Part shown: in pieces, positions 1,437 through 55,763 of the stretch
Numbering within the stretch: the first letter of the stretch is position 1
Layout: the number at the start of each line of letters is the position of its first letter
NCBI GenBank assembly: GCA_041661385.1
Contig: JBAZUP010000001.1
Location: 81,692 to 145,691, forward strand
Direction of reading: 5' to 3'
DNA length: 64,000 nucleotides
Source: Patescibacteria group bacterium
GTDB lineage: Bacteria; Patescibacteriota; Patescibacteriia; Magasanikbacterales; GWA2-37-8
Translations under genes and position numbers: made by a program
Notes under the pieces: model-generated
The model's database searches: none
What the model was told of the DNA's origin: nothing
The model's input: only the letters and a program-made list of their open reading frames with translations

Positions 1437-1901
1437 ATGTTTACCGCAATTTGCGTGGTAATAGTAATCGCTTTTGTGATTACTATGGTCAGCAGTCATG
1501 TGGGAAACGAAGTTGTTGAGAGCGGGTCAGATTGGGGTCACGCAATTAGTGTGGGCGGTTTTATCGGCAGCATGGCATTTTTGTTGGTGTTTGGACATCT
1601 CAGCCAGTCTTGGGCAGAGACACCATCGAATTTGGCGGGACTGTCTATGCCGTTTACACCATTGTATGCGCCTTCAACCGAATTTGTGATTTACGCTCCG
1701 GCCGGATGCGTGGTCTATTTCAAGACGGAGTCAGATCATATTCGGCCGGTAAAAAGCAACGGCAAGGAAATTTTTTTTGAAAAAAACGAAAATTCCGCGT
1801 TGCTCTACGGCCAAAAGTGTATTTGGCAGTTCAAAGTCGTTGGCCCAAGGCAAGCGAGTCATGAGTATGACCAAAGGGTCTCTGTGGTTATTCGAATCTA
1901 G
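1437..1901 (+). CDS. hypothetical membrane-anchored protein (GC-richer, SD-bearing)
   Basis: ORF 1389..1901 trimmed to ATG at 1437 preceded by GAGGGGGG SD; N-terminal hydrophobic helix; followed by structured element copy A. Confidence 0.4.
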   Translation: MFTAICVVIVIAFVITMVSSHVGNEVVESGSDWGHAISVGGFIGSMAFLLVFGHLSQSWAETPSNLAGLSMPFTPLYAPSTEFVIYAPAGCVVYFKTESDHIRPVKSNGKEIFFEKNENSALLYGQKCIWQFKVVGPRQASHEYDQRVSVVIRI

Positions 1902-1910
1902 AGATAAGAA

Positions 1911-2036
1911 GTAAAATATACGGGGGGTGGTAAGAAGTTCGCTACCACCAACCGTTTTGTTCATAAGGTTTGTGAATAAAACGGTAGCGAGCTTCATAAT
2001 TAAAAACATCCAGGTTATTTCTGGATGTTTTTAATT
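1911..2036 (+). ncRNA. conserved structured 3' RNA element, copy A (two alternative hairpins plus intrinsic terminator)
   Basis: ~70% identical to 17497..17628 with compensatory changes in all three stems (ggtggta/taccacc vs ggtggc/gccacc; catccag/ctggatg vs cctccg/cggagg). Confidence 0.45.
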
Positions 2037-3793
2037 ATATCTTTTACCATTAGTTGCAGTTCTCGGTTTCCATTCCATTCGTTTACGCTGACTGAAAATG
2101 CTAGGTCAATAATGTCACCAGGTTTGAGTGAAACACTCCAGTTGGCCGGATGTTTTTCGGCATTGCCAAATCCAAAAGCAATTGTTTTTCGAATAATGTG
2201 AGAGTTGTGTTTAACCATGAGGCGTAGGTGTTTGTTGTCTTTGCCGACGGTTTCTACCGATGTAACTGTTAAACCTCTTGCTGCATAAACTGGTTCATCG
2301 TTCGCAGTTCCGAATGGTTCAAATTTTTGAAGAATGTCATAAAGTTTCCAGCTAACATCTTCGAGACTTACCTCGGCATCAATCTTTAACTGCGGGCTAA
2401 GATCAAGGTCTTTGGTACCCTCTTTTGCTTTCTCAAGCATTGCCTCTTTAAAAGCGGGTAGTTTGTCCGGTAAAATTGAAAAACCGCACGCTTGTGGATG
2501 GCCGCCAAATTTTTCAAGGTATTTAGAAAGGGCCTGCAGGTTAGCGATAATATTAAAACCCGGAACACTTCGCCCGGAAGCAACTACCATTTTTTCACTT
2601 ACTCCCATTACTAAGATCGGTTTATAAAATTCATCTTTCAGTTTGCTAGCAACTAAACCAAGAATTCCCGCACTCCAATTTTCACCTTCAATAAAAATTA
2701 TCGGGTTGTTTTCTTGTTCTGTTTTCTTAATTTGTTTGCGGGCTTCTTTGAGAAGTTTTTCGGTAAGTTTTTGACGATCGATATTATTTTGCTGAAGTTG
2801 ATCGGCCAATTCTGAAGCTTTTTCATTCGTCTCAGCCATTAGCAGGGCGTAAGCAAAATTCGCGTGATCCATTCTTCCGGCAGCGTTAATTCTCGGCGCA
2901 ATCTGAAAACCAATTGTCTCGGTATTAAAAGTTCGTTTAGGTTTATCATTTTCATCGAGTAGTCCGGCAATAGCAAGTAATTTTCTTAATCCGGCATTAC
3001 GAGATTTGTTCAATACAGTAAGACCGTATCGTACCAGTGTCCGAGATTCGCCAATAAGCGGAACCATATCAGCAACGGTAGAAATAGAAACCAGATCCAA
3101 AAGCCATTTTTCAAATGCCTCATGTCTTTCGCCGTCTGGTAATAGATCATTGTTTTTGTGGTGTTCAATTAAAAGCGCCTGGATTAATTTAAAAGCAACT
3201 CCACCTCCTGAAAGTGAACGGTCGGGGTAGGTTTCACCGGGAACCAGTGGGTGGATAATTGCGTCCGCGGGCGGAAAGATTGCCGGCATCGCGTGGTGAT
3301 CGGTAATAATTACATTCATCCCCAATTCTTTTGCAAGGGCTACTTCGGCAGTGTTAGAAATACCGCAGTCGCAGGTTATTATTAAATTGGTTTTTTCTTT
3401 GTTAAGAAACTTAATTGTGTTTTTATTAAGACCATAACCGTCAATTTCTCGGTGGGGGATAAAGACGCTGTAATTATTACAGCCAAGTTTTTTGAGTGTG
3501 GTGATAATAATCGCGGAAGCGCAGACGCCATCTGCGTCATAATCACCATGAACGGTGATTTTCTCTCCTTTTTTTATTGCATTGAATATAAGTTCGATCG
3601 CTTTTTTCATGTCCTTAAATAAAAAAGGATCATGAATATCGCCGAGGTAATCGGGGTTAAGAAATTCATCAATTTGTTTTGTGGTGCGCAAGCCTCGATT
3701 CCAAAGTAGGGTGCAGGCGATCGGTAAAAGTTCGGGGTGTTCAGCCAAAAAACTTGACGGAGGTGGCGCCGCTATCAACCATTTTTTTTGCAT
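2015..3793 (-). CDS. recJ: single-stranded-DNA-specific exonuclease RecJ
   Basis: DHH motifs (HGDYDADGVCASAI, CDCGISN, ITDHH) and DHHA1-like C-terminus; ORF tool start is TTG at 3823, ATG at 3793 preferred. Confidence 0.9.
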   Translation of the reverse strand: MQKKWLIAAPPPSSFLAEHPELLPIACTLLWNRGLRTTKQIDEFLNPDYLGDIHDPFLFKDMKKAIELIFNAIKKGEKITVHGDYDADGVCASAIIITTLKKLGCNNYSVFIPHREIDGYGLNKNTIKFLNKEKTNLIITCDCGISNTAEVALAKELGMNVIITDHHAMPAIFPPADAIIHPLVPGETYPDRSLSGGGVAFKLIQALLIEHHKNNDLLPDGERHEAFEKWLLDLVSISTVADMVPLIGESRTLVRYGLTVLNKSRNAGLRKLLAIAGLLDENDKPKRTFNTETIGFQIAPRINAAGRMDHANFAYALLMAETNEKASELADQLQQNNIDRQKLTEKLLKEARKQIKKTEQENNPIIFIEGENWSAGILGLVASKLKDEFYKPILVMGVSEKMVVASGRSVPGFNIIANLQALSKYLEKFGGHPQACGFSILPDKLPAFKEAMLEKAKEGTKDLDLSPQLKIDAEVSLEDVSWKLYDILQKFEPFGTANDEPVYAARGLTVTSVETVGKDNKHLRLMVKHNSHIIRKTIAFGFGNAEKHPANWSVSLKPGDIIDLAFSVSVNEWNGNRELQLMVKDIIKNIQK

Positions 3794-3797
3794 ATTA

Positions 3798-3899
3798 TTA
3801 TTTGCCTTGAAAAGCTGGAGCAATCGTAAAGAAGATCATGGCGATTATACCTATAAACGCCCCAATCGCGACTAATATTTTTTTTGATTTTTTTTTCAT
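3798..3899 (-). CDS. small hydrophobic peptide (33 aa) immediately upstream of recJ
   Basis: ATG..TAA ORF MKKKSKKILVAIGAFIGIIAMIFFTIAPAFQGK; single predicted TM helix; not in ORF track (<60 aa). Confidence 0.25.
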   Translation of the reverse strand: MKKKSKKILVAIGAFIGIIAMIFFTIAPAFQGK

Positions 3900-8169: not shown

Positions 8170-9588
8170 ATGAAACTTACTTTTTTTGGCGCCGCCGGCG
8201 AAGTTACCGGTTCGTGTTCACTTTTAGAAACTGGTGAACATAAAATACTTATTGATTGTGGAATGTTTCAAGGTGGAGAGGGGAATGAACAAAAAAATCA
8301 AAATCCTTTACCATTTAGCCCGGCCGCGCTTACTGCGGTTTTAGTCACTCACGCTCACCTCGATCACGTTGGGCGATTGCCGCTTCTTACCAAGAACGGT
8401 TTTAAGGGTTTTATTTATGCTACTCCGCCAACTCGCGATTTAGCTCGCCTTATAATGGAGGATGCCTATGGAGTTATGGAATATGATCACCGAAAATTTG
8501 GCCGGCCGCTACTTTATGAAATGCGCGACGTTGAAAATGTCATGGCACAGTTTAAAACGGTTGATTATTATAAACCGCTGCAAATTTCACGAGGAAAAAA
8601 TCTTTTGCATCAGGTAAAAAAAATAATTAAAAAAAATAAACCAGCTGAAGATCCAAATTCAGTTACTGTTACATTCCATGATGCCGGGCATGTTTTTGGT
8701 TCGGCTTTTATTGAAATTGAATCCGAGGGAAAACGAGCGGTATTTTCCGGAGATGTTGGAAATGTTAGCGTTCCGATTTTGCGTGATACAGATTTATTGC
8801 CGAAAAATATCGATGTTTTAATTTGTGAATCTACCTATGGTGATCGAACTCATGAATCCTCCGATCGTCGAAAGGAGCTTTTAGAAGAGGCGATTAAAAA
8901 AACTATCAGTCAGGGCGGAGTTCTCATGATCCCATCCTTTGCTCTTGAACGTACCCAAGAATTGCTTTATACCCTAAACGATTTAATCGATCGTCATCAT
9001 GATCTCAAAAGAGTGCCAATATTTTTGGATAGTCCGCTCGCGATTGATGCCTTAAAAGTTTTTGAAAAATATCCGGAATATTATGATGAAGAAGCCGATA
9101 AATTTTATAATGACGGTGATGATTTGTTTAATTTTCCGGGTTTGGTTTTGACTTACACCCGAGATGAATCAATGAAAATTAATCATACTCCTAGCCCAAA
9201 AATAATTATCGCCGGTGCCGGCATGATGAATGGGGGAAGAATTTTACATCATGCCATGCGTTACTTATCGGATCATCGCAATACACTTTTGATTATTGGT
9301 TATCAGGCGCACGGCACTCTTGGCTGGCAATTATTAAACGGCCACACTCATGTTCAGATTCACGGCGAAAGCATTCCAGTTCATTGTGAAGTAAAAATGC
9401 TTAATGCTTTTTCTGCGCATGGCGATCGTAATAAACTAATTAAATGGATTGAAAATAATAGAAACAGTGTAAAAAAAGTTGTTCTAAATCATGGCGATCC
9501 GGATCAAACTAGTGCTTTCGCGAAGTCATTAAACGAATTAAAAATAGATGCAGTTGCGGCGGAGTTTAACAAAACCATGGAAATATAA
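8170..9588 (+). CDS. beta-CASP family MBL-fold ribonuclease (CPSF/Ysh1-like)
   Basis: HxHxDH motif HAHLDHVGRLP, later D and H residues of beta-CASP; 472 aa. Confidence 0.7.
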   Translation: MKLTFFGAAGEVTGSCSLLETGEHKILIDCGMFQGGEGNEQKNQNPLPFSPAALTAVLVTHAHLDHVGRLPLLTKNGFKGFIYATPPTRDLARLIMEDAYGVMEYDHRKFGRPLLYEMRDVENVMAQFKTVDYYKPLQISRGKNLLHQVKKIIKKNKPAEDPNSVTVTFHDAGHVFGSAFIEIESEGKRAVFSGDVGNVSVPILRDTDLLPKNIDVLICESTYGDRTHESSDRRKELLEEAIKKTISQGGVLMIPSFALERTQELLYTLNDLIDRHHDLKRVPIFLDSPLAIDALKVFEKYPEYYDEEADKFYNDGDDLFNFPGLVLTYTRDESMKINHTPSPKIIIAGAGMMNGGRILHHAMRYLSDHRNTLLIIGYQAHGTLGWQLLNGHTHVQIHGESIPVHCEVKMLNAFSAHGDRNKLIKWIENNRNSVKKVVLNHGDPDQTSAFAKSLNELKIDAVAAEFNKTMEI

Positions 9589-9603
9589 TAAAAAGTTAAA
9601 AAC

Positions 9604-9639
9604 AAGCCCTTTGCTTAATAAACAAAGGGCTTTTTTATT
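9604..9639 (+). terminator. intrinsic terminator after beta-CASP gene
   Basis: aagccctttg...caaagggctt hairpin followed by T-run. Confidence 0.6.
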
Positions 9640-9666
9640 TGTATTTTTAGCCTATTTTAAAGTTGT

Positions 9667-9760
9667 TTGACCTGTGGATAAATAGGTAAAAAAGTGTTGA
9701 CCGATGTGGAAGAGTGGAGTAAAATGGAGATAGGTGGTGAAAAGTGGTGAAAATGCTTGT
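9667..9760 (+). promoter_or_regulatory. mraZ promoter (TTGACC-17-TAAAAT) with GTGG direct repeats (MraZ-box-like operator)
   Basis: five GTGG copies including tandem GTGGTGAAAA x2 between -10 and mraZ start. Confidence 0.45.
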
Positions 9761-9780
9761 ATCACTAACAAAACCATCCC

Positions 9781-10212
9781 ATGTTTATCGGGGAATATTC
9801 GCACAATCTGGATGACAAAGGACGCCTCGCAATACCGGCGAAATTTCGCAATCAGGTAAAAAAAGGCGCAGTCGTAACCAGAGGCCTCGATAATTGTTTG
9901 TTCCTTTACACAAAATCTGAATGGGAAAAATTGGCAGAAAAACTTGCCACACTTCCGATCAGTCAATCAAATAGCCGGGCATTTTCTCGCTTGATGCTCG
10001 CCGGTGCCATGGATGTAGAGGTGGATAAACAAGGCCGGATAATTTTACCCGAATATCTACGACGCTTTGCAGGGTTAAAAAAAGAAGTAGTCCTGGCTGG
10101 TTTGTATAGCCGCATTGAAATTTGGGATGCAGGAGAGTGGAATGTTTACAAGAGCCAGACCGAAAAGGAAAGCGGTAATATTGCCGAGCGGATGGCGGAA
10201 TTAGGAATTTAA
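9781..10212 (+). CDS. mraZ: transcriptional regulator MraZ
   Basis: MFIGEYSHNLDDKGRLAIPAKFR N-terminus, duplicated MraZ fold length. Confidence 0.9.
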   Translation: MFIGEYSHNLDDKGRLAIPAKFRNQVKKGAVVTRGLDNCLFLYTKSEWEKLAEKLATLPISQSNSRAFSRLMLAGAMDVEVDKQGRIILPEYLRRFAGLKKEVVLAGLYSRIEIWDAGEWNVYKSQTEKESGNIAERMAELGI

Positions 10213-16319: not shown

Positions 16320-16625
16320 ATGCTCGCAGTAATTGCAACTGGTGGCAAGCAGTACGTCGTTAAAAGCGGCGATGTTTTAAAAATTGAAAAAATTCTTGGT
16401 GAAGAAGGTTCAAAAATTTCCTTTGATCGCGTTTTACTTTCAGCCGATGAAAACGGTGAAAATGTAAAAATTGGCAACCCGACCGTTGCGGGATTAAAAG
16501 TGCCAGCCGTGATTTTGAAGCAAGGTAAACACCGAACTGTTAGAGTTGAAAAGTTCAAACGCAAGGTTCGTTACCACAAAGTACATGGTCAACGCCAACG
16601 CTTCACTGAAGTAAAAATCTCATAA
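16320..16625 (+). CDS. rplU: 50S ribosomal protein L21
   Basis: MLAVIATGGKQYVVKSGDVLKIEKI N-terminus characteristic of L21. Confidence 0.9.
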   Translation: MLAVIATGGKQYVVKSGDVLKIEKILGEEGSKISFDRVLLSADENGENVKIGNPTVAGLKVPAVILKQGKHRTVRVEKFKRKVRYHKVHGQRQRFTEVKIS

Positions 16626-16632
16626 ATAAACA

Positions 16633-16658
16633 ACCCGCCTTTAACTGGCGGGTTTTTT
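16633..16658 (+). terminator. intrinsic terminator after rplU
   Basis: cccgcc..ggcggg hairpin plus T6. Confidence 0.6.
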
Positions 16659-16688
16659 AATATTCTTAGCTAAGATTAGCAAAAACAG

Positions 16689-16717
16689 TTGACTGGTTTG
16701 CTGTTTTATGCTACAAT
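16689..16717 (+). promoter_or_regulatory. sigma70-type promoter TTGACT-17-TACAAT with ~108-nt structured leader
   Basis: consensus hexamers; leader hairpin agaacgaag..cctcgttct; strong AAAAGGAGAAG SD before 16826 ATG. Confidence 0.5.
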
Positions 16718-16825
16718 CTTTTGTTCCAATAGAACGAAGCGCAAACCGTTGTACCTCGTTCTATCGAAGCAAAAAGTTTCGATAATAACGCGGAACATAT
16801 CCGCCAACTCCAAAAGGAGAAGTAA

Positions 16826-17488
16826 ATGGCAAATATTATTTTTGCGATTCTGCGAGCCGCAGTTTACTCCTCGCTCATCATAGCTGTCATTTTCTCGGTG
16901 CACTTTTTGGTGACCCGGGCGAGGCGGGCGAGGCGAAACGGTTCTGGCATTTTCAGCAGTTTGCTGTTTGGATTCCTAAGGCTAGTTGGCGTATTTGTCC
17001 TAGTCATCGCGATATTCGGATTGCCCATCATAGCAGTGCTATATGTGTATCCGAAAATTGTTAACGCGAGGATTATGGAAAATAAGGCCCCAAACACGGA
17101 CATGATTGTCGAGGCGTCGGTGAAAGTTCCCGATATTCCTGAACCTGGTAATTCGGAGGTGATAATACCTCCAAAAAAGACAGTAAAAAGGATTGCCAAG
17201 TTTGAGGTAAGAGTGCGCGAAGGCATGACGGTAAAATTCGTTAAGAATGATGGTACCCCAACCGGTTCCATTCTCCGTCACCTTGGTGATAACACCAAAA
17301 CCATGCTCGCTCTTCCGGTTGAGCCAGAATCAGTCGCCATCATCTTCCCGATTCGGGCAGAAACAGATTGTTCATTCGAAACGAAGCAAACTCAAGGCGA
17401 GTATATTGCTTGTCAGCGAGTCGGCTCGTTCAAAGTCGAAAATGAAGTTCTAGGCATTGGCTATGCCACTTTCGACGCAGTAAAGTAA
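16826..17488 (+). CDS. hypothetical membrane-anchored protein (GC-richer, strong SD)
   Basis: two N-terminal hydrophobic helices then soluble domain; followed by structured element copy B. Confidence 0.45.
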   Translation: MANIIFAILRAAVYSSLIIAVIFSVHFLVTRARRARRNGSGIFSSLLFGFLRLVGVFVLVIAIFGLPIIAVLYVYPKIVNARIMENKAPNTDMIVEASVKVPDIPEPGNSEVIIPPKKTVKRIAKFEVRVREGMTVKFVKNDGTPTGSILRHLGDNTKTMLALPVEPESVAIIFPIRAETDCSFETKQTQGEYIACQRVGSFKVENEVLGIGYATFDAVK

Positions 17489-17496
17489 GTCACCGC

Positions 17497-17628
17497 CGTA
17501 GAAATACGGATAGGTGGCAGGGTTGAGCTCGCCGCCACCTACCGTTTTGTCCGCAAGTATTTGCGCATAGAACGGTGGCGAGCTCTATAATTTAAAAACC
17601 TCCGTTAATATTCGGAGGTTTTTATTTT
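17497..17628 (+). ncRNA. conserved structured 3' RNA element, copy B
   Basis: aligns with 1911..2036 including accgttttgt and aacggtRgcgagct cores and terminal hairpin plus U-run. Confidence 0.45.
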
Positions 17629-18242
17629 GAAGTGCGATTGTTGATTGCGCTACCGAGAGTGATTTCATCGGCGTATCTGAGGTCAGCGCCGAGTGGTAGG
17701 CCGCGCGCAAGTCTGGTAATTTTTATTTTAGGCTGCATTTTTTTTATTTCTTTTTCAAGATACATCATCGTGGTTTCACCAGGTAAATCCGGGTTTAGAG
17801 CTAGAATTATTTCTTTAATTGGTATTTTTTTATTGAAACCAGTTTTGCCGTTTATTCGGTCAAATAATTCACTGGCTTTTAATCTGGTCAGGCTTTCTTC
17901 ATCACCAGCATCAAGTAGCTCGCGTAAACAGTGGTAGACGCCCTTAAAAATGCCGGTTTGTTCTACGACTAATAAATCTTGCGATTCAGTCACTACGCAA
18001 ACCGTCGAACGATCACGTTTTAAATCCGAACAAATTGGGCAAGGGCTTTGATCGCTAAAATCCCAGCAGATCTCACAGCTTTTAATTTTATCAATCAAAT
18101 CTTTTAAGGATAGTATGAGTTCTGTTACTTCTTTTTTTCCGGATTTAAGCCAATGAAAAACATACCGTTCGGCTGTTCTCTCTCCAACCGACGGTAACTT
18201 CTTCAGAGCCAAAATTAATTTGTTTATCGAAGAGGAATACAT
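17622..18242 (-). CDS. recR: recombination protein RecR
   Basis: C4 zinc finger CEICWDFSDQSPCPIC, Toprim region. Confidence 0.9.
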   Translation of the reverse strand: MYSSSINKLILALKKLPSVGERTAERYVFHWLKSGKKEVTELILSLKDLIDKIKSCEICWDFSDQSPCPICSDLKRDRSTVCVVTESQDLLVVEQTGIFKGVYHCLRELLDAGDEESLTRLKASELFDRINGKTGFNKKIPIKEIILALNPDLPGETTMMYLEKEIKKMQPKIKITRLARGLPLGADLRYADEITLGSAINNRTSK

Positions 18243-24741: not shown

Positions 24742-24922
24742 AAACCGCCCATCTTGACAAAAGGCGGTTTTTATGTTATACTAATGCACGTTGGGTAACA
24801 GTTAAAAATAGTTCCCAAGGTGTCGTATAACCGCCATCCGCCGCAAGGCGAAGCGGCACGACCGGTCGATTAATTAAGTAGTCTCAAAACACATTTTGGG
24901 AACAAACAAGACACATAATTTT

Positions 24923-25252
24923 ATGGCTTTCGGAACAGACAGGCAAATGTACGATGTGAATCTTACCTGCGCAAAATGCGGTACACACATCTCTCAATTG
25001 CCATTCCAACCATCAGGTGACAGACCAGTGTACTGCAGCGAATGCAATCGCGCTTTCCGCCAAACCCGCACGGGTGGCAACGATCGCGGTGGCAGAAGCT
25101 TTGGCGGTGCTAGCAATGGTCCTCGTCAGATGTTCGATGTCAACTTGACATGCGCCAGCTGTGGAACTGCAATTACTCAATTGCCATTCCAACCATCTGG
25201 TGACAAACCAGTTTACTGCCGATCCTGCTTGCAGGCTCGCAGAAACAGCTAA
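24923..25252 (+). CDS. tandem zinc-ribbon protein (2 x CxxC-x18-CxxC) with RGG-rich linker
   Basis: internal duplication MYDVNLTCAKCGT..PVYCSEC / MFDVNLTCASCGT..PVYCRSC; tool start is TTG at 24896, ATG at 24923 preferred. Confidence 0.5.
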   Translation: MAFGTDRQMYDVNLTCAKCGTHISQLPFQPSGDRPVYCSECNRAFRQTRTGGNDRGGRSFGGASNGPRQMFDVNLTCASCGTAITQLPFQPSGDKPVYCRSCLQARRNS

Positions 25253-26893: not shown

Positions 26894-27814
26894 ATGAAAA
26901 AAGTATATTACATAAAGATATATTACAAACCTAAAAATATTTACGAAAAAAAAATATTATTTTTATTGCAGTCCCTAAGTAATATACGACGTATTAAATT
27001 CTTCCATCATTTTTTAGATCAAAACGGACTTGAGACTGTAAAAAAGATGAAAAAACTTCAGGAAACCCGAGGGTATAAATATTCCGGTAAACCAATTATT
27101 ACTAATAATATTGAAAAAGGTTTAGTTAAAATCAACACGGGACAAAATAGAAGTGTATTGCTTATCGTAATAAAAGCGGATGATAGGATAAAAAAAGAGA
27201 TCGATGACTTGTTAAATAAATTTAAGCATTTCTTTTTAAGCATAAAAATAAGCACAAAGTACGTTGAAGATGTTGAGATAATTACACCATTAAATATGCG
27301 TGGTGGTAATGATTTTCTAAATTTATCATTTTATATATCTAAAATTGCTATCGATTTGCTTAAAATTAAAAAAAATAGTGATTTAAAAAATATGCCGATG
27401 GTATTTCTTGGTGTTTCGGTAATTTTTGATCTGGAAAAAAAGTTTAAAAAAAAATATATATTTAAAAAAATAATTCACCAGTATCGCCTGTACTTAAATA
27501 AATATTTTATGTTTAATGAAAATGAGATGCTGTCTTTGAATAAAGCTAGTGAAAAATATGTTGGTATTTTAACTAAAGTTGACAAGTGTGAGTTTGATTT
27601 TCAGAATGGAGTGGTTTATAAATATTTTATTAACGGTATATATGATTATTTTAACAAGAGTAACCACCTAAAAAGAGTTGAAAATAATAACAAAAAGAGG
27701 CAACTATCGTGGCAATTTTTTCACTGGTTTAATAACTCACTGAATATCCATTTCGCCAAGGAAGTATTGTTGGTATTTGTGCTAATGAAATATTATGAGA
27801 GTAAAAAATCATGA
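26894..27814 (+). CDS. hypothetical Lys/Asn/Ile-rich protein (AT-rich island)
   Basis: strongly AT-biased codon usage unlike flanking genes; no motif. Confidence 0.4.
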   Translation: MKKVYYIKIYYKPKNIYEKKILFLLQSLSNIRRIKFFHHFLDQNGLETVKKMKKLQETRGYKYSGKPIITNNIEKGLVKINTGQNRSVLLIVIKADDRIKKEIDDLLNKFKHFFLSIKISTKYVEDVEIITPLNMRGGNDFLNLSFYISKIAIDLLKIKKNSDLKNMPMVFLGVSVIFDLEKKFKKKYIFKKIIHQYRLYLNKYFMFNENEMLSLNKASEKYVGILTKVDKCEFDFQNGVVYKYFINGIYDYFNKSNHLKRVENNNKKRQLSWQFFHWFNNSLNIHFAKEVLLVFVLMKYYESKKS

Positions 27815-29879
27815 TTATATAAGAACAACATCTGTTGAGTATAATCAGGCAGTAAAATTAGTTTCTACTACTTTTATTAATGAAACATTTAGAATGTTGT
27901 ATAAATTTGGTAAGTTTCCAAAATTAGACATTCGTACCATTGATGAAAGATGTGGGAAGGTAGATATGACTGCTTATATAAAATCATATGGAAAATGCAT
28001 ATCTTCAATTAAAAGTAGATTATATAAGCTCACTTTTTCCCCCGTCATCAGTGTTTGCATAGCATATAATAATAAACCGTTATTAGATGATTTTGAAAAA
28101 ATTAAATATTCAACTAATAAAAAAAGAAATAATAATGTATTTCGGTCACTAAATTTTTTTATAAGTAGAGCAACGTTTGACGCGACCTACGGTGGATTAT
28201 TTGGTTTTTATTCACATTTTAGATTTGTTTCAAGTCATAATGTGTCGTTTAATAAAAAGTTATTACTTTTTTCGGAAAAGAATAGGTTAGATGTTGATTC
28301 AGTTAAAATATCTAAATCGAATGTTTTTTCATTAAATCCAACGATTGTTATTAGTGAAAATTATGTAATGTATTTCAGATACAAAAAAAATGAGGAGGAA
28401 GTTATCAAGGTCCACAGTAAGGAGGTAGTTCGCTTATTTAAAAAATTAGCAAGTGCAAAATCAAATTTAATTAGCTTGGATGATTTAGAAAACGCAATTA
28501 AATTAACCGGGATTAGGAAGAATTTTGATAATAAATATTATTTATCGTTTGTTAGTAAATTAATAGATTTGGGACTTATCAAGCGAGATCCAATAAGTGT
28601 TAAGAATAAATTATTTAAAAATAGAAGTTTTGATATACCTTTTGAGGCTAAAAGTATAAGAGGCATAAAAGATGAAAAACATAGTATTTATGATCTTTAT
28701 AATGTAAATAATGTATATGTTGAAAATAGTCTAAGTAATGAATTCAAGGCCTCAACATCCATATATTTAAATTTATTAAACCAACAACTACAGTCAATTC
28801 ATAATGAAAAAGTCTATTTAGGCAACATCTTACGTCAATACCTAAAAAATATTAATAAGGATAGGTGCGGCTTGTTAGACTTCGTAGTCGTTTTTAAGGA
28901 CGAAATATTAAATCTTAAAAAATCGCGGGCGAATAATTCGTTTTCTTTTTATGAAAAATTTTTAAATGAAATCAATACTAACAAAAAAGCTGAAGAAGTC
29001 CAGTTTAAAAATATTTTTACACAAAAAAGCGAAGTTAAGAGCGATTTAGAATTTTATCTTTCTGTATGCAAAATTAATAATAAAAACCGAATTTTAATTA
29101 ATTGTATATCCCCGTCGGGTGTTTTAAGTTCTCGATTTGATTATATTCTAAAATCTAAGAGAACCATTTTTCACAGATCGATGTATGAACCTATTGAAGT
29201 TATATTCGAGCCACAAAATATTAATCTTTTTCATTCATTTAGAAGAAATAAATATACAAAATATTTTTTAAATATCAATTGTAATTTAAATAATTTACGT
29301 CAAGAAGTAATAAATGCTAATAGTATTTGTCTTACAATAGGTGAAAGCGGTCTGCCTGTGCTATTCAGCCCAGAAACAAACATGTTTTTTGATCCAGTTG
29401 TCCATTCCACATTATCTGCCGAACATAGTATAATTTTAGTTTTTTTAAGAATGATAAGCCGCTGCCAGGAGGAAATTGACGTCCTGCCACGACTATTGCC
29501 AGATCGGGTAAAGGGTTTAAATTATATTCCACGGGTAGTAGTCGAAAATTTGATAATATCTAAAAGGATTTGGAAAATTGAACTTGTGGAAATTAATATC
29601 ATTAATGGTTCGATACCCAAGTATAATGAGTATTTGTATTTAATGAATTATTTCAAGGTGAGAAAAATTCCACGTTTTGTTACTGTGTTTAGTCCGCTCA
29701 ATGAAAAACAAAAGTTTCTTGATTTGTATAATCCGTTTGCTTTTTTGTTGTTCAAAAAATATAAAAATGAAAAGTATATTTTTTTTGAAGAAATGATGCC
29801 GTCGCCAAACAACGTTAGTGATTTTGATGAAAAAAATAAACATTTTAATCAGTATTTTTTTACTCATCAAATTTCATAA
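27795..29879 (+). CDS. large hypothetical protein (694 aa), possibly LanB N-terminal-like
   Basis: size and position upstream of rSAM and LanB-C-like gene; no diagnostic motif verified. Confidence 0.35.
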   Translation: MRVKNHDYIRTTSVEYNQAVKLVSTTFINETFRMLYKFGKFPKLDIRTIDERCGKVDMTAYIKSYGKCISSIKSRLYKLTFSPVISVCIAYNNKPLLDDFEKIKYSTNKKRNNNVFRSLNFFISRATFDATYGGLFGFYSHFRFVSSHNVSFNKKLLLFSEKNRLDVDSVKISKSNVFSLNPTIVISENYVMYFRYKKNEEEVIKVHSKEVVRLFKKLASAKSNLISLDDLENAIKLTGIRKNFDNKYYLSFVSKLIDLGLIKRDPISVKNKLFKNRSFDIPFEAKSIRGIKDEKHSIYDLYNVNNVYVENSLSNEFKASTSIYLNLLNQQLQSIHNEKVYLGNILRQYLKNINKDRCGLLDFVVVFKDEILNLKKSRANNSFSFYEKFLNEINTNKKAEEVQFKNIFTQKSEVKSDLEFYLSVCKINNKNRILINCISPSGVLSSRFDYILKSKRTIFHRSMYEPIEVIFEPQNINLFHSFRRNKYTKYFLNINCNLNNLRQEVINANSICLTIGESGLPVLFSPETNMFFDPVVHSTLSAEHSIILVFLRMISRCQEEIDVLPRLLPDRVKGLNYIPRVVVENLIISKRIWKIELVEINIINGSIPKYNEYLYLMNYFKVRKIPRFVTVFSPLNEKQKFLDLYNPFAFLLFKKYKNEKYIFFEEMMPSPNNVSDFDEKNKHFNQYFFTHQIS

Positions 29880-29882
29880 TTT

Positions 29883-31253
29883 ATGGATGTCTCAAATATA
29901 AACAAATATAGTCTCAGAACATTGTTATCTCAACTATACAGTTGTGATGATTTTTTTATGGTCAGAGATATTTTAAGAATTATAATGATAAATAAAAAAA
30001 ATAATGAAATGATTTTCAAATCAATTAATAAAGTCGGGATAAAAAAAGAAAATAAGGATAAAATTTTAAAATTAAATAATAAATTAAAAAATACACCTGA
30101 CGTACATCTCAAATTTGATGGAGCGGTAATTTTTTATAAGCACATCTCTCCCGGTTGTGAGCATTGTGTTGTAGATATGGGCTGTACCATAAGGCCATCA
30201 ATCCAATGTAATAGAAATTGTTTTTTTTGTTTTGTAGACGATTCACCCATAACAAAAAAGATTAAACCCGATTTGGTTTCGATTAAAAAAATCATTAAGA
30301 ATCGATTTAAAGAAGAAAAATTTCAATCATTTGCGATTAGTGGAGGAGAGCCGTTTTTATATCCGGAAGAAGTTTTTGAGATTTTGCGATTTGTCAATAA
30401 TGAATTTGGAAGCAGTGTTTACACAAGAGTTTATACCAACGGAGATTTAGTTAATGAAAATATCTTGATTAAATTAAAAGAGTTAAAACTTAATGAAATT
30501 AGATTTAGTGTGAAGCCGCTTGAAGAGCCGAAAACGTCTTTATTAAAATGTGCAAAAAGGTATATTCCAACTGTTTTAATTGAAATGCCGGTACTTCCAA
30601 ATTCAGAAAAGTTTATGAAAAAATTAATTTTAAAGTTGGATAAAATCGGAATTGATGGAATAAATTTATTAGAATTATTTTATAATGGTCACAACTCGGA
30701 AATATTTAAAAAAAGGCATTACAAAATTGACATAACTGAAAGTGAGATTAGAAAAATTTATAACTCCAAACCAGTTTTTGAATATCCAATATATGGAAGT
30801 CGGGCGCTTTGTCTTAAATTACTCAAATATTTTTCCGATGCTAAATTGGGAATGTTTATTAATTTTTGTTCACAAAAAACCAAGCAGCTTCAATATGACC
30901 GGCGGCAAAAAAAAGTCGCTAGTGAAAATATGACGCCTTTTTCTATAATTACACCGGTTAGCACACATGAGGTATTAGCAATATATTCGGATTTAGAAAT
31001 GATTGAAAAAAAATTGAAAAACTTAGGAATAAAGGAGTATTTAGTTAGGAAAGATAAAAATATTAGTTTGAGAATTGAGACCAGCGTTACAAATATCGGA
31101 ATTTTTAGAAAAGAAAATATTTCTTTAGTCAAATTATATAGAGATCCTAGCAATACTTACGACATCGGTTTTAAGGTTATTAAAATCAAAAAAAATAAAG
31201 ATATAAATACAAATGTATCTGAACTGATTGACAACTTCAAAAAATATGTCTAA
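29883..31253 (+). CDS. radical SAM protein with extra N-terminal Cys cluster
   Basis: CNRNCFFC (CxxxCxxC) preceded by CEHCVVDMGC; glycine-rich SAM motif FAISGGEPFLYPE; ~90-aa N-terminal extension; no SPASM Cys set. Confidence 0.8.
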   Translation: MDVSNINKYSLRTLLSQLYSCDDFFMVRDILRIIMINKKNNEMIFKSINKVGIKKENKDKILKLNNKLKNTPDVHLKFDGAVIFYKHISPGCEHCVVDMGCTIRPSIQCNRNCFFCFVDDSPITKKIKPDLVSIKKIIKNRFKEEKFQSFAISGGEPFLYPEEVFEILRFVNNEFGSSVYTRVYTNGDLVNENILIKLKELKLNEIRFSVKPLEEPKTSLLKCAKRYIPTVLIEMPVLPNSEKFMKKLILKLDKIGIDGINLLELFYNGHNSEIFKKRHYKIDITESEIRKIYNSKPVFEYPIYGSRALCLKLLKYFSDAKLGMFINFCSQKTKQLQYDRRQKKVASENMTPFSIITPVSTHEVLAIYSDLEMIEKKLKNLGIKEYLVRKDKNISLRIETSVTNIGIFRKENISLVKLYRDPSNTYDIGFKVIKIKKNKDINTNVSELIDNFKKYV

Positions 31254-32058
31254 AAAAATATATCGGAACAAAGGTTGCGTAAAAATATCTAGCTGGATAC
31301 AATTAAGAATTACAAATTGTAAGTTCGGTGATGATTATATTTTAGGGGACCTTTCAAAATATTTGGAAATATTAAGAAACAAAAAACAAATAAAATCTTG
31401 GTTTTTTTTAAATAAAAATGATTCAATCCTGCTAAAAATTGAATCTGCTGATAAGTATTCGAATAAATTTTTGGATGTAATTAAATATTTAAAGCAAAAT
31501 GGTCCTCGGATTAATGTCACCACAGAACCATTTGAACCTGAGATTTTTCAGTTCGGTGGTAAAACTGGGTGGGCTGTAGCTTCAAAATATTTCAACTCTA
31601 TTTCAGTATTGTCTATTAAATCAATTAAATCTAAAATAACGAATATAAACGCCGCCATTGTTTTGGTATTTGATTTGCTGATGAGAAATAATTCTGACTC
31701 GTTTGAGGTTTGGGATATTATGCAGAGGTTGATGATAATAAGGGGAGTTTCTCAAGATTATTCCTCTGCCGGTATTGAGAAAAATACAATATATCAAAAT
31801 ATTAACACATTATTTAATAAGCCCGATAAATTTTATCTCGAAACATTTAAAAATACAAAAATGATTAAGGAAGTTGTAGCAGCCAGTAAATATTGCCTAC
31901 GAGAACTTAAAAAAAATGAACGTTCATTAATCTTTTCGCACAGGAAAATATTACCTTATTATGTAATATTTATTTTTAATATGTTGCTGATTTCTGAGAG
32001 TGAGCAAAAAGATATTATAAAATCAATGTCTGTTTTGTGTAATCCTGGAAAATATTAA
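31228..32058 (+). CDS. LanB C-terminal (SpaB_C / thiopeptide-type bacteriocin biosynthesis)-like domain protein
   Basis: SWFFLNKNDSILLKIE resembles the WFF-x5-D-x2-L-x-L block and FEPEIFQFGG resembles the YxPExxRYGG block recalled for Lant_dehydr_C; alternative start ATG 31246. Confidence 0.4.
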   Translation: MTTSKNMSKKIYRNKGCVKISSWIQLRITNCKFGDDYILGDLSKYLEILRNKKQIKSWFFLNKNDSILLKIESADKYSNKFLDVIKYLKQNGPRINVTTEPFEPEIFQFGGKTGWAVASKYFNSISVLSIKSIKSKITNINAAIVLVFDLLMRNNSDSFEVWDIMQRLMIIRGVSQDYSSAGIEKNTIYQNINTLFNKPDKFYLETFKNTKMIKEVVAASKYCLRELKKNERSLIFSHRKILPYYVIFIFNMLLISESEQKDIIKSMSVLCNPGKY

Positions 32059-55250: not shown

Positions 55251-55763
55251 TCAGGAAAGAGCGGATGTGCCGAGAAACCAGGCATTGTCTGGCCATTGAA
55301 TTCCATAGTAACTCTTTTTGAGATACAGAAAGTTACCATCTTCGGCGGAGCGAAGGAAGGAAGCAAATGGTGTTCGGTTGAACACAAATTTGGTATCTGG
55401 GCAGACCAGGAGGCCAAGTTTTGTTACGAATCCGGGGGACTCGATTGCCGCATCAGCAAGGTTGCAAAAGTTTGCCGGTGCAATTTCCAGAGAACGCAAC
55501 TTGTCTAGCGCAGCTTCGATTGTCATTCCTCGACCAAAATTTACCGCGATTAACTCGATCAGCTTGGGCTGCTGATATTTGGGAAGAACGTAATTCAAAA
55601 GCGCGCTAGTGCTGAATATTGGGTCATAGACGACCCTTGCGTTATGTAGTCGGACATAGTATGCCGAAACGTTACGCATTGGGCAGAAACGAACAAGCGT
55701 CGATTCGATTGAAATGGTTTCCTTTTCAAAAGAAGGTTGCGCGAAGCCGTTACCGTGACTCAT
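55251..55763 (-). CDS. hypothetical protein (GC-rich, GGAGG SD)
   Basis: tool ORF trimmed to MSHGNGFA with GGAGG 8 nt upstream; ~47% GC. Confidence 0.4.
   Translation of the reverse strand: MSHGNGFAQPSFEKETISIESTLVRFCPMRNVSAYYVRLHNARVVYDPIFSTSALLNYVLPKYQQPKLIELIAVNFGRGMTIEAALDKLRSLEIAPANFCNLADAAIESPGFVTKLGLLVCPDTKFVFNRTPFASFLRSAEDGNFLYLKKSYYGIQWPDNAWFLGTSALS

What the first reader, a model, noticed from the sequence alone, without database searches (positions are those of the whole stretch)
1911..2036. Conserved ~125-nt structured RNA element (copy A) with compensatory base changes, 3' of an SD-bearing GC-rich gene
The stretches after ORF 1437..1901 and after ORF 16826..17488 align over ~125 nt at roughly 70% identity. 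Shared cores are AAATAYACGG, ACCGTTTTGTYC and AACGGTRGCGAGCT. Three stems are maintained by compensatory substitutions. Stem 1 is ggtggta/taccacc in copy A versus ggtggc/gccacc in copy B. An alternative stem pairs gttcgctacc with ggtagcgagc in A versus gagctcgcc with ggcgagctc in B, and shares its 5' strand with the 3' strand of stem 1. The terminal terminator hairpin is catccag/ctggatg in A versus cctccg/cggagg in B, followed by a U-run. Covariation in mutually exclusive stems suggests a functional RNA, such as a 3'UTR switch, a small RNA with its own terminator, or the conserved end of a mobile gene cassette.
Basis: seen in the sequence. Interest (0 to 1): 0.65.

Follow-up and report, generated by a model that had tools for sequence, protein, structure and literature searches.

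The report
Conserved structured 3'UTR RNA in CPR bacteria
A roughly 125-base RNA structure sits between the stop codon and the terminator of a few fast-evolving, GC-rich small genes in one clade of Patescibacteria (CPR) bacteria; it matches no described RNA family and is far better conserved than the genes it follows.

Summary
Copy A (1911-2036) and copy B (about 17489-17628) are 78-83% identical over about 125 nt. They are the only two copies in the window and follow ORFs with no detectable similarity. No Rfam family matches.

The window comes from a Magasanikbacteria-like Patescibacteria MAG. Relatives fetched through RecR neighbours carry the element at the orthologous rplU/recR slot. There the RNA core is nearly invariant while the upstream protein falls to 22-43% identity. 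One relative has a third copy type after an unrelated 87-aa ORF.

P1 pairs GGUGGC with GCCACC. ALT pairs GAGCUCGCC(GCC) with (GGU)GGCGAGCUC and stacks on P2 into a long bulged hairpin. G.U pairs outnumber A.C, which indicates RNA read from the + strand. No promoter lies between stop codon and element, so it is a 3'UTR.

My best reading is a new, clade-restricted, cis-acting 3'UTR module that sets mRNA 3'-end fate (stability or processing) through alternative pairing. That function is inferred, not shown. A 3'UTR-derived small RNA is the main rival. Mobile-element and attC readings were tested and are not supported.

The parts
1437..1901 (+). ORF A (154 aa). A hypothetical membrane protein with GC3 0.50, against 0.25-0.40 for its neighbours. 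The element is its 3'UTR.
   Evidence: no Pfam match; equals P0123, annotated as a hypothetical protein of a Patescibacteria MAG; GC3.
1926..1932 (+). Copy A, segment 2: the 5' strand of P1 (GGUGGUA).
   Evidence: sequence; a 7-nt complement of TACCACC, matched or beaten in 47 of 2000 shuffles.
1935..1949 (+). Copy A, segment 3. AAGUUCGCUACC (1935-1946) is the 5' strand of ALT. UACCACC (1943-1949) is the 3' strand of P1. The two overlap by 4 nt.
   Evidence: I2; the MFE uses ALT+P2.
1951..1985 (+). Copy A, central hairpin P2 (ACCGUUUUGUUCAUAA / UUGUGAAUAAAACGGU).
   Evidence: I3; helix 4: 6 pairs with changes on both sides.
1983..1994 (+). Copy A, segment 4: the 3' strand of ALT (GGUAGCGAGCUU). 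Its first 3 nt are shared with P2.
   Evidence: I2; RNAalifold consensus.
1996..2038 (.). Copy A, intrinsic terminator hairpin (core AAAAACAUCCAG / CUGGAUGUUUUU). It is bidirectional and overlaps the stop codon of the convergent recJ gene (2015-3823, - strand).
   Evidence: I1; RecJ domains.
16689..16825 (+). Own promoter of the ORF B unit (TTGACT-N17-TACAAT with an upstream TG, 16689-16717), followed by a structured 5'UTR.
   Evidence: a TTGAC-N17/18-TAnnnT promoter, consensus TATAAT in four, sits at this place in all 7 related units.
16826..17488 (+). ORF B (220 aa). It has two predicted N-terminal helices and a C-terminal Ig-like beta-sandwich. It is hypervariable, with GC3 0.50.
   Evidence: (8 homologues among 1.84 billion representatives).
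17489..17512 (+). Copy B, segment 1 (GUCACC, 17489-17494, directly after the stop codon) and hairpin P0 (CCGUA 17496-17500 / UACGG 17505-17509). Segment 1 can pair with segment 2.
   Evidence: MFE in all five ORF-B orthologues. helix 1: 4 pairs with changes on both sides.
17513..17518 (+). Copy B, segment 2: the 5' strand of P1 (GGUGGC).
17525..17539 (+). Copy B, segment 3. GAGCUCGCC(GCC) (17525-17536) is the 5' strand of ALT. GCCACC (17534-17539) is the 3' strand of P1.
   Evidence: (I6).
17541..17576 (+). Copy B, central hairpin P2.
17574..17585 (+). Copy B, segment 4: the 3' strand of ALT, (GGU)GGCGAGCUC.
   Evidence: (I6).
17594..17623 (.). Copy B, intrinsic terminator (AAAAACCUCCG / CGGAGGUUUUU). 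It is bidirectional and abuts the stop codon of the convergent recR gene (17622-18242, - strand).
   Evidence: helix 5: 6 pairs with changes on both sides.

Best explanation
It is a previously undescribed, clade-restricted structured RNA module that forms the 3'UTR of a few independently transcribed genes in Magasanikbacteria-like Patescibacteria.

**Layout.** The RNA is read from the + strand as the tail of the upstream mRNA: stop codon, an optional hairpin P0, then the core, an A/U-rich spacer of 8-27 nt, and an intrinsic terminator shared with the convergent gene.

**The core.** It has a long central hairpin (P2) and one C-rich segment (segment 3, ..GCCACC) that has two possible partners.
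- It can pair with an upstream GGUGGC (segment 2), forming P1.
- It can pair with a downstream GGUGGCGAGCUC (segment 4), forming ALT. ALT stacks on P2 to give a bulged duplex of about 25 bp, which is the thermodynamically favoured form.

**What I infer (not shown).** The module acts in cis on the fate of the mRNA 3' end. It would either protect the transcript against 3'-to-5' decay or offer a double-strand RNase processing site. The P1/ALT competition would set which state is adopted.
For: **Shown**
- Two paralogous copies lie in the window.
- Orthologous copies occupy the same rplU/recR slot in relatives whose RecR is 73-90% identical (L008, L009, L011/L134, L138-141), and in L143 and L144, which were reached through ORF-B protein homologues. 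A third copy type sits elsewhere in one relative (L134:945-1059).
- DNA similarity between the window and L008 is lost across the ORF body and resumes exactly at the stop codon. The RNA core is almost unchanged in L143 and L144, where the protein is 43% and 35% identical.
- On the model-based alignment, 94.9% of cells are paired, against 80% after shuffling and about 45% when partners are slid. 23 of 46 pairs change on both sides. The ALT helix, which was not part of the covariance model, is 96% paired with 3 pairs changed on both sides.
- RNAalifold on an independent MAFFT alignment returns ALT + P2 + terminator.
- Segment 2 tracks segment 3 between lineages: GGUGGUA/UACCACC, GGUGGC/GCCACC, GGUGGU/GCCACC, GGGCGG/CCGCCC.
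- G.U pairs outnumber A.C pairs 24 to 9. The + strand folds better than the - strand.
- No promoter-like site lies between stop codon and element. A consensus promoter lies upstream of ORF B.
- No reading frame stays open through the element across lineages.

**Inferred**
- The role in stability or processing rests on three things: the position of the element, the long duplex, and analogy with 3' stem-loop stabilisers and with lambda sib. The analogy comes from my own knowledge of those systems, not from a tool.
Against: - There are no expression, 3'-end or half-life data.
- The alternative helices do not overlap the terminator or any ribosome-binding site, so no output is visible in the sequence.
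- L137 carries a weak ORF-B homologue (hmmsearch E = 0.002) with only a plain terminator, so the element is dispensable in that lineage.
- Only 6-7 independent lineages are available, all from one clade. The alignment used for pair counts was fitted to part of the structure.
- I could not survey distribution outside the clade. The genome scan gave only chance hits, and the metagenome scan was flooded by high-GC coding matches.
Confidence: 0.5

Rival explanations
1. It is a 3'UTR-derived, trans-acting small RNA. The roughly 125-nt tail would be cut from the mRNA, or made from a promoter inside the ORF end. It would share the mRNA's terminator and would act on other transcripts through an exposed C-rich bulge (GCCACCU / ACCACCA).
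For: - The 3'UTR is far better conserved than the coding sequence, and conservation starts at the stop codon. That pattern is typical of 3'UTR-derived small RNAs (my own knowledge).
- In the favoured fold, a conserved CCACC stays single-stranded in the bulge.
- The RNA ends in a strong terminator hairpin.
Against: - No promoter-like site lies near the 5' edge.
- The bulge is also the pairing partner of segment 2 within the same RNA, and covariation supports that pairing.
- No target complementarity was identified.
- The spacer before the terminator is not conserved in sequence.
Confidence: 0.2
2. It is a translation-sensing 3'UTR switch built like an attenuator. In the ORF-B orthologues four segments alternate: 1 GUCACC, 2 GGUGGC, 3 GCCACC, 4 GGUGGC. 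Segment 1 starts directly after the stop codon. A terminating ribosome would mask it, favouring 2:3 (P1). An untranslated mRNA would fold 1:2 plus 3:4 (ALT+P2). mRNA fate would then be coupled to translation.
For: - Starting from the stop codon, the MFE fold is 1:2 plus ALT+P2 in all five ORF-B orthologues.
- GUCACCG directly after the stop codon is invariant in those five, while the enclosed P0 hairpin covaries.
- P1 and ALT are both supported by covariation.
Against: - Segment 1 has no counterpart in copy A, L134b or L138. It is therefore not part of the family core.
- Segment 1 never varies, so it carries no covariation evidence.
- The 3:4 helix is not a terminator, and no output is visible.
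Confidence: 0.1
3. It is a DNA-level element: the conserved end of a mobile gene cassette (attC-like), a MITE- or REP-type repeat, or a recombination or protein-binding site that helps the variable ORFs to be exchanged.
For: - ORF-plus-element units are variably present. L134b has no counterpart in the window (9588-9781 holds only a terminator). L013 has neither the ORF nor the element.
- The upstream ORFs are GC3-rich and hypervariable. In L138 the ORFs are unrelated, although the promoter, 5'UTR and 3' element are the same.
Against: - No terminal inverted repeats or target-site duplications flank the units.
- No attC R''/R' core sites occur at consistent positions.
- No integrase or transposase was seen among the neighbouring genes that were annotated.
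- Copy number is low (2 in 64 kb), and the position is stable across species.
- G.U-compatible substitutions indicate selection on RNA, not on a DNA palindrome.
- There are no phage, plasmid or viral matches.
Confidence: 0.07
4. It is nothing beyond an ordinary terminator region, and the similarity is a by-product of a gene duplication.
For: The 3' hairpin is an ordinary intrinsic terminator. ORF A and ORF B may be very distant paralogues: the motif IYAxxGxxVYFK is shared by ORF A and the L011 protein.
Against: - The 90 nt upstream of the terminator are conserved as well as recR is, while the ORFs have diverged beyond DNA alignment.
- Compensatory changes occur in three separate helices.
- Other genes in the same genome end in plain terminators.
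Confidence: 0.03

Closest known systems
3' stem-loop mRNA stabilisers: REP/BIME sequences of enterobacteria and the 'positive retroregulator' 3' of Bacillus thuringiensis cry genes (from my own knowledge)
   Same: A structured RNA between a stop codon and the transcript end, often between convergent genes. It would impede 3'-to-5' exonucleases and acts in cis.
   Different: - REPs are simple palindromes present in hundreds of copies and are mobilised by RAYT transposases.
- This element is low-copy and stable in position.
- It has three helices with a competing pair and is a separate unit upstream of the terminator.
Lambda sib retroregulation: an RNase III site 3' of int (from my own knowledge)
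   Same: A long, imperfect duplex downstream of the coding region, where the fold adopted decides whether the upstream message is degraded. ALT+P2 gives about 25 bp with one bulge.
   Different: In lambda the choice is set by where transcription ends. Here both folds lie upstream of the terminator. RNase III cleavage is untested.
3'UTR-derived small RNAs of enterobacteria, such as CpxQ, DapZ and SroC (from my own knowledge)
   Same: The 3'UTR is more conserved than the coding sequence, and the terminator is shared with the parent mRNA.
   Different: No processing site, internal promoter, seed or chaperone is known here. The conserved bases are mostly in helices.
Leader-peptide transcription attenuators, such as the trp leader, with 1:2 / 2:3 / 3:4 alternative pairing (from my own knowledge)
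   Same: There is a chain of alternately complementary segments, the first of which lies within reach of a ribosome at a stop codon.
   Different: The element lies 3' of a full-length gene, not 5' of the regulated genes. The 3:4 helix is not the terminator. Segment 1 is absent from half of the copy types.
Integron attC sites
   Same: An imperfect inverted repeat of 60-140 nt at the 3' end of unrelated, often orphan ORFs.
   Different: There are no R'' (RYYYAAC) / R' (GTTRRRY) cores, no integrase and no cassette array. The copies are single units at conserved chromosomal positions.

Membership tests
Any Rfam 15 family | The covariance-model score reaches the family's gathering threshold. | tested here: not met
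   There were 0 gathering-level hits in the whole window. With permissive filters, the best hits on either copy score 23-26 bits against thresholds of 40-114 and are unrelated families.
Intrinsic (Rho-independent) terminator | A G+C-rich hairpin followed directly by a U-run. | tested here: met
   This is met by the 3' hairpin only: 1996-2038, and 17594-17623 plus its U-run. The about 90 nt upstream (P1, ALT, P2) are not followed by a U-run and are not part of a terminator.
Riboswitch or transcription attenuator | It lies 5' of the regulated ORF. The alternative helix overlaps a terminator or the ribosome-binding site. The aptamer has conserved unpaired nucleotides. | tested here: not met
   - The element lies 3' of the ORF.
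- P1 and ALT overlap neither the terminator nor a Shine-Dalgarno sequence.
- Loops and junctions vary, while the conserved bases sit in helices.
Integron attC site | R'' RYYYAAC and R' GTTRRRY core sites at the two ends, and association with intI or a cassette array. | tested here: not met
   No consistent core sites occur in 9 copies. No integrase appears among the neighbours.
MITE- or REP-type dispersed repeat | Many copies per genome, terminal inverted repeats and/or target-site duplication, and insertion sites that vary between relatives. | tested here: not met
   - There are 2 copies in 64 kb and none further in about 197 kb of related loci.
- No flanking repeats were found.
- The same slot is occupied in 7 relatives.
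tRNA-like element or tmRNA | ARAGORN detects a cloverleaf or a tmRNA. | tested here: not met
   ARAGORN found 0 genes in the window.
3'UTR-derived small RNA | A discrete stable RNA species generated by processing or from an internal promoter, with trans targets. | not testable with these tools
   This needs RNA-seq or a Northern blot. The only data are negative promoter scans.
hok-type type I toxin mRNA with a fold-back (5'-3') interaction | A conserved long-range pairing between the mRNA 3' end and its 5' UTR or translation-initiation region. | tested here: inconclusive
   RNAduplex energies between the 5'UTR and the 3' element lie within about 1-2 sd of shuffled controls, and no conserved interaction site appears. 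The proteins are 154-259 aa, much larger than hok-type toxins (the size comparison is from my own knowledge).

The most novel reading that the evidence does not exclude
In this CPR clade the element is one half of a conserved 'expression scaffold'. The scaffold is a consensus promoter, a three-hairpin 5'UTR and this 3'UTR switch, and different hypervariable surface-protein coding sequences are carried between them. L138 keeps both UTRs but has unrelated ORFs.

Under this reading, the 3' switch works as an attenuator-like sensor of whether a ribosome has reached the stop codon (segment 1 masked, so P1 forms; unmasked, so ALT+P2 forms). That would couple mRNA survival to productive translation. 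It would be a regulatory logic not described for bacterial 3'UTRs, as far as I know.
Probability: 0.12. Interest if true: 0.8.

Novelty: new variant of a known kind. Interest (0 to 1): 0.55.

Why it matters
- **Few RNA families are known in these organisms.** To my knowledge, bacterial 3'UTR structures with covariation support are rare among described RNA families, and few RNA families have been described from CPR/Patescibacteria, which are uncultivated and have very small genomes. A 3'UTR module under stronger purifying selection than the protein it follows suggests that control at the mRNA 3' end matters for a set of fast-evolving, probably surface-exposed proteins in these episymbiont-like bacteria.
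- **It is experimentally tractable.** The two covariation-supported, competing helices give a defined conformational switch that can be tested in vitro or in a heterologous reporter.
- **It can be used for annotation.** The covariance model could annotate these units in CPR genomes. It would also flag the hypervariable genes next to them.

Tried and rejected
- **Genome-collection scan** with ACCGTTTTGN{14,30}AACGGTNGCGAGC gave 5 hits, all chance matches in coding DNA of unrelated phyla. The source species is evidently not among the representatives.
My uniform-composition estimate of chance hits was wrong, and the scan was wasted. The only look-alike, L111, is a perfect palindrome in ORF-poor DNA and is not credibly related.
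- **Viral, phage and plasmid searches** gave one chance hit and otherwise nothing.
- **Protein searches with ORF B and with a 5-sequence profile** showed the family is tiny: 3 proteins in one search and 8 in the other. The two long hits, P0128 and P0130, match short repeat-like stretches, an RCC1-like repeat in P0128, and I set them aside.
- **Pfam, NCBIfam and PADLOC** gave nothing for the upstream ORFs.
- **5'UTR-3'UTR pairing** is not better than shuffled controls.
- **attC cores, a conserved small ORF inside the element, and TIR/TSD** are all absent.
- **MAFFT misaligns the P1 5' strand** between copy types, and the covariance model puts L011 and L138 in a shifted P1 register. I therefore read P1 covariation directly from the sequences and checked it with a shuffle test.
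- **Literature search** for CPR structured-RNA motifs returned only general motif-discovery papers, and I read none of them.

Full report
**1. The observation**

Copy A lies at 1911-2036 and copy B at about 17489-17628. MAFFT gives 78% mean column identity over about 155 nt and 83% over the 115-nt core. nhmmer and blastn-short find no third copy in the 64 kb. The two long shared cores occur only at these two places.

The upstream ORFs (1437-1901 and 16826-17488) have no BLASTP similarity and no Pfam match. Folded as RNA, both copies are far more stable than shuffles (z = -7.9 and -7.1), and the + strand is more stable than the - strand.

Two corrections are needed.
- The 'AAATAYACGG' block is not a conserved core.

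**2. Where it sits**

Each copy lies between convergent genes. A small hypothetical ORF on the + strand comes first, then the element, then a bidirectional terminator hairpin whose far side abuts the stop codon of recJ (2015-3823, - strand) or recR (17622-18242, - strand). The surrounding genes are ordinary chromosomal genes: rmlD, lepA, rplU, ybaB and dnaB. ORF B is recorded as a hypothetical protein of a 'Patescibacteria group bacterium' MAG on a 779-kb contig. The closest named RecR relatives are Candidatus Magasanikbacteria.

**3. Known families**

Rfam 15 gives no gathering-level hit anywhere in the window. Permissive searches of both copies give only weak, unrelated hits. ARAGORN finds nothing. 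Phage, plasmid and viral collections hold nothing similar.

**4. Relatives**

The two broad DNA-pattern scans failed (see 'tried and rejected'). I therefore fetched contigs through RecR homologues and through homologues of ORF B.

| Locus | How it was reached | What lies between recR and the neighbouring ORF |
|---|---|---|
| L008 | RecR 90% identical | The element, in a gap of 135-150 nt |
| L009/L010 | RecR 76% identical | The element, as above |
| L011/L012/L134-136 | RecR 76% identical | The element, as above |
| L138-L141 | RecR 73% identical | The element, but after unrelated small membrane ORFs of 47 and 90 aa |
| L143 | ORF-B protein 43% identical | The element |
| L144 | ORF-B protein 35% identical | The element |
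| L013-15 | RecR 71% identical | Neither ORF nor element; recR abuts rplU |
| L137 | RecR 75% identical | An ORF but only a plain terminator |
| L142 | RecR 73% identical | An ORF but only a plain terminator |

L134 carries a further copy (945-1059, - strand) after a GC-rich 87-aa ORF that converges on an RNase J-like gene. The window has only a terminator at that place.

blastn between the window and L008 loses similarity across the ORF B body and regains it exactly at the stop codon (17482). It then runs through the element into recR at 76% identity. The RNA is therefore conserved like a housekeeping gene, while the protein it follows is hypervariable.

**5. Structure and covariation**

I built a covariance model from winB, L008 and L009 with helices P0, P1, P2 and the terminator. 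It finds all known copies and nothing else in about 197 kb of window plus related loci.

On its alignment of 10 sequences, with the ALT helix added as a pseudoknot:
- 94.9% of cells are standard pairs, against 80.1% after shuffling and 39-47% when partners are slid.
- 23 of 46 pairs show changes on both sides.
- ALT was not in the model, yet it is 96% paired with three pairs changed on both sides.

RNAalifold on an independent MAFFT alignment predicts ALT (12 bp) + P2 + terminator.

Covariation read directly from the sequences:

| Helix | Variants seen |
|---|---|
| P2 base | ACCG/CGGU, against ACCC/GGGU in L011 |
| ALT | GAGC..GCUC, against GAAG..CUUC in L134b, and AAGU..GCUU in copy A |
| ALT | ..GCC/GGC.., against ..GCU/AGC.. 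in L009 and copy A |
| ALT | ACAGUUCGUCACC/GGUGAUGAUCUGU in L138 |
| P1 | GGUGGC/GCCACC, GGUGGUA/UACCACC (copy A), GGUGGU/GCCACC (L011), GGGCGG/CCGCCC (L134b) |

In every lineage the 10 nt before P2 have a 6-8 nt complement upstream. Taken singly, these matches were equalled in 22 to 328 of 2000 shuffles.

P1 and ALT use the same C-rich segment. The overlap is complete in L011, L134b and L138 and partial in copies A and B. They are therefore competing helices, or at best a strained pseudoknot.

G.U pairs (24) outnumber A.C pairs (9). That points to RNA read from the + strand rather than a DNA palindrome. No reading frame stays open through the element across lineages.

**6. Transcription context**

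- No promoter-like site lies between either stop codon and the element.
- The ORF B unit has its own consensus promoter after the rplU terminator (TTGACT-N17-TACAAT with TG, 16689-16717). A TTGAC-N17/18-TAnnnT promoter lies at this place in all seven related units, and five of them share a three-hairpin 5'UTR.
- Good Shine-Dalgarno sequences precede the ORFs.
- The ORFs followed by the element are GC3-rich: 0.50-0.77, against 0.25-0.40 for their neighbours. That argues for real coding regions with unusual composition.
- The ORF B family has only 8 members among 1.84 billion representatives.
- Its C-terminal domain models as an Ig-like beta-sandwich behind two predicted N-terminal helices. pLDDT is about 85 in that domain, and the PDB matches are weak.

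**7. Folding from the stop codon**

In the five ORF-B orthologues the MFE fold pairs GUCACC (directly after the stop codon) with GGUGGC around hairpin P0. The rest folds as ALT+P2, with a 7-nt bulge GCCACCU. This gives a 1:2 / 2:3 / 3:4 chain like an attenuator. Segment 1 is absent from copy A, L134b and L138, so it is not part of the family core.

**8. Interpretation**

*Shown:* a conserved, structured, + strand RNA in the 3'UTR of several unrelated or barely related ORFs, with two competing helices, restricted so far to one CPR clade and unknown to Rfam.

*Inferred:* it acts in cis on the mRNA 3' end. The position just before the terminator and the long ALT+P2 duplex fit either protection from 3' exonucleases or a double-strand RNase site. 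The P1/ALT competition would choose between states.

*Rivals:*
- A 3'UTR-derived small RNA is not excluded.
- A translation-sensing switch is attractive for the ORF-B orthologues only.
- A DNA-level cassette end is contradicted by the lack of repeats, core sites and recombinases, by the stable position, and by the G.U-compatible substitutions.
- A mere terminator or duplication remnant is contradicted.

**9. Verdict**

It is a new RNA motif rather than a member of a described family. Its kind, a cis-acting structured UTR element, is known. Its architecture and 3' location are unusual. Its function is unresolved.

Interest is moderate to good (0.55). It would be higher if the translation-coupled switch or the 'conserved UTR scaffold around swappable coding sequences' were confirmed.

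Noticed in passing
window 16689-16825; also L008, L009, L011, L138 upstream of the corresponding ORFs: A consensus promoter is followed by a roughly 110-nt 5'UTR with three hairpins. AUCGAAGC can pair either with an upstream GUUUUGAU or with a downstream GUUUCGAU, the same 'one segment, two partners' logic as in the 3' element. The first and third hairpins covary between relatives. Rfam gives no match.
   Followed up: partly
L138:10663-11376 (- strand) compared with window 16626-17628: This relative keeps the promoter, the 5'UTR and the 3' element of the ORF-B unit. In place of the 220-aa Ig-like protein it encodes two unrelated small membrane ORFs (47 and 90 aa). The UTRs are conserved but the coding sequence has been replaced.
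   Followed up: partly
window 1437-1901, 16826-17488, 24896-25252, 39625-40380, 40545-42410 (-), 55251-55880 (-): Six of 59 ORFs have GC3 of 0.48-0.59 in a 39% GC genome whose other ORFs have GC3 of 0.23-0.43. Two of the six are the ORFs followed by the element. In relatives, the equivalent ORFs reach GC3 of 0.58-0.77. The cause is unknown: foreign origin, biased gene conversion or selection.
   Followed up: partly
window 40393-40490: After the GC3-rich ORF 39625-40380 comes a long bulged hairpin (CCAGGCGUC..GACGCCUGG around CACCUUUG..CAAAGGUG), then an A-rich spacer and a terminator, converging on ORF 40545-42410 (-). The layout is the same as the element. It gives only a weak nhmmer hit (E = 0.035) and no covariance-model hit. 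Homology is not established.
   Followed up: partly
window 26894-32058: A low-GC island (GC 0.26-0.28 against 0.39 overall) spans four consecutive + strand ORFs. It may be a horizontally acquired cluster. I did not annotate it.
   Followed up: no
window 1-64000: The 64 kb of chromosome contain no tRNA or tmRNA gene and no Rfam family at gathering score.
   Followed up: no
window 16320-16625 and 16826-17488: rplU (L21) ends in its own terminator and is followed by the orphan ORF B unit rather than by rpmA (L27). In the relative L013, recR directly abuts rplU.
   Followed up: no
window 9652-9780; L134:1440-1620: The region upstream of mraZ carries conserved repeated GTGG/GTGGTGAAAAGTGGTGAA motifs in both genomes. 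These may be MraZ-binding repeats.
   Followed up: no
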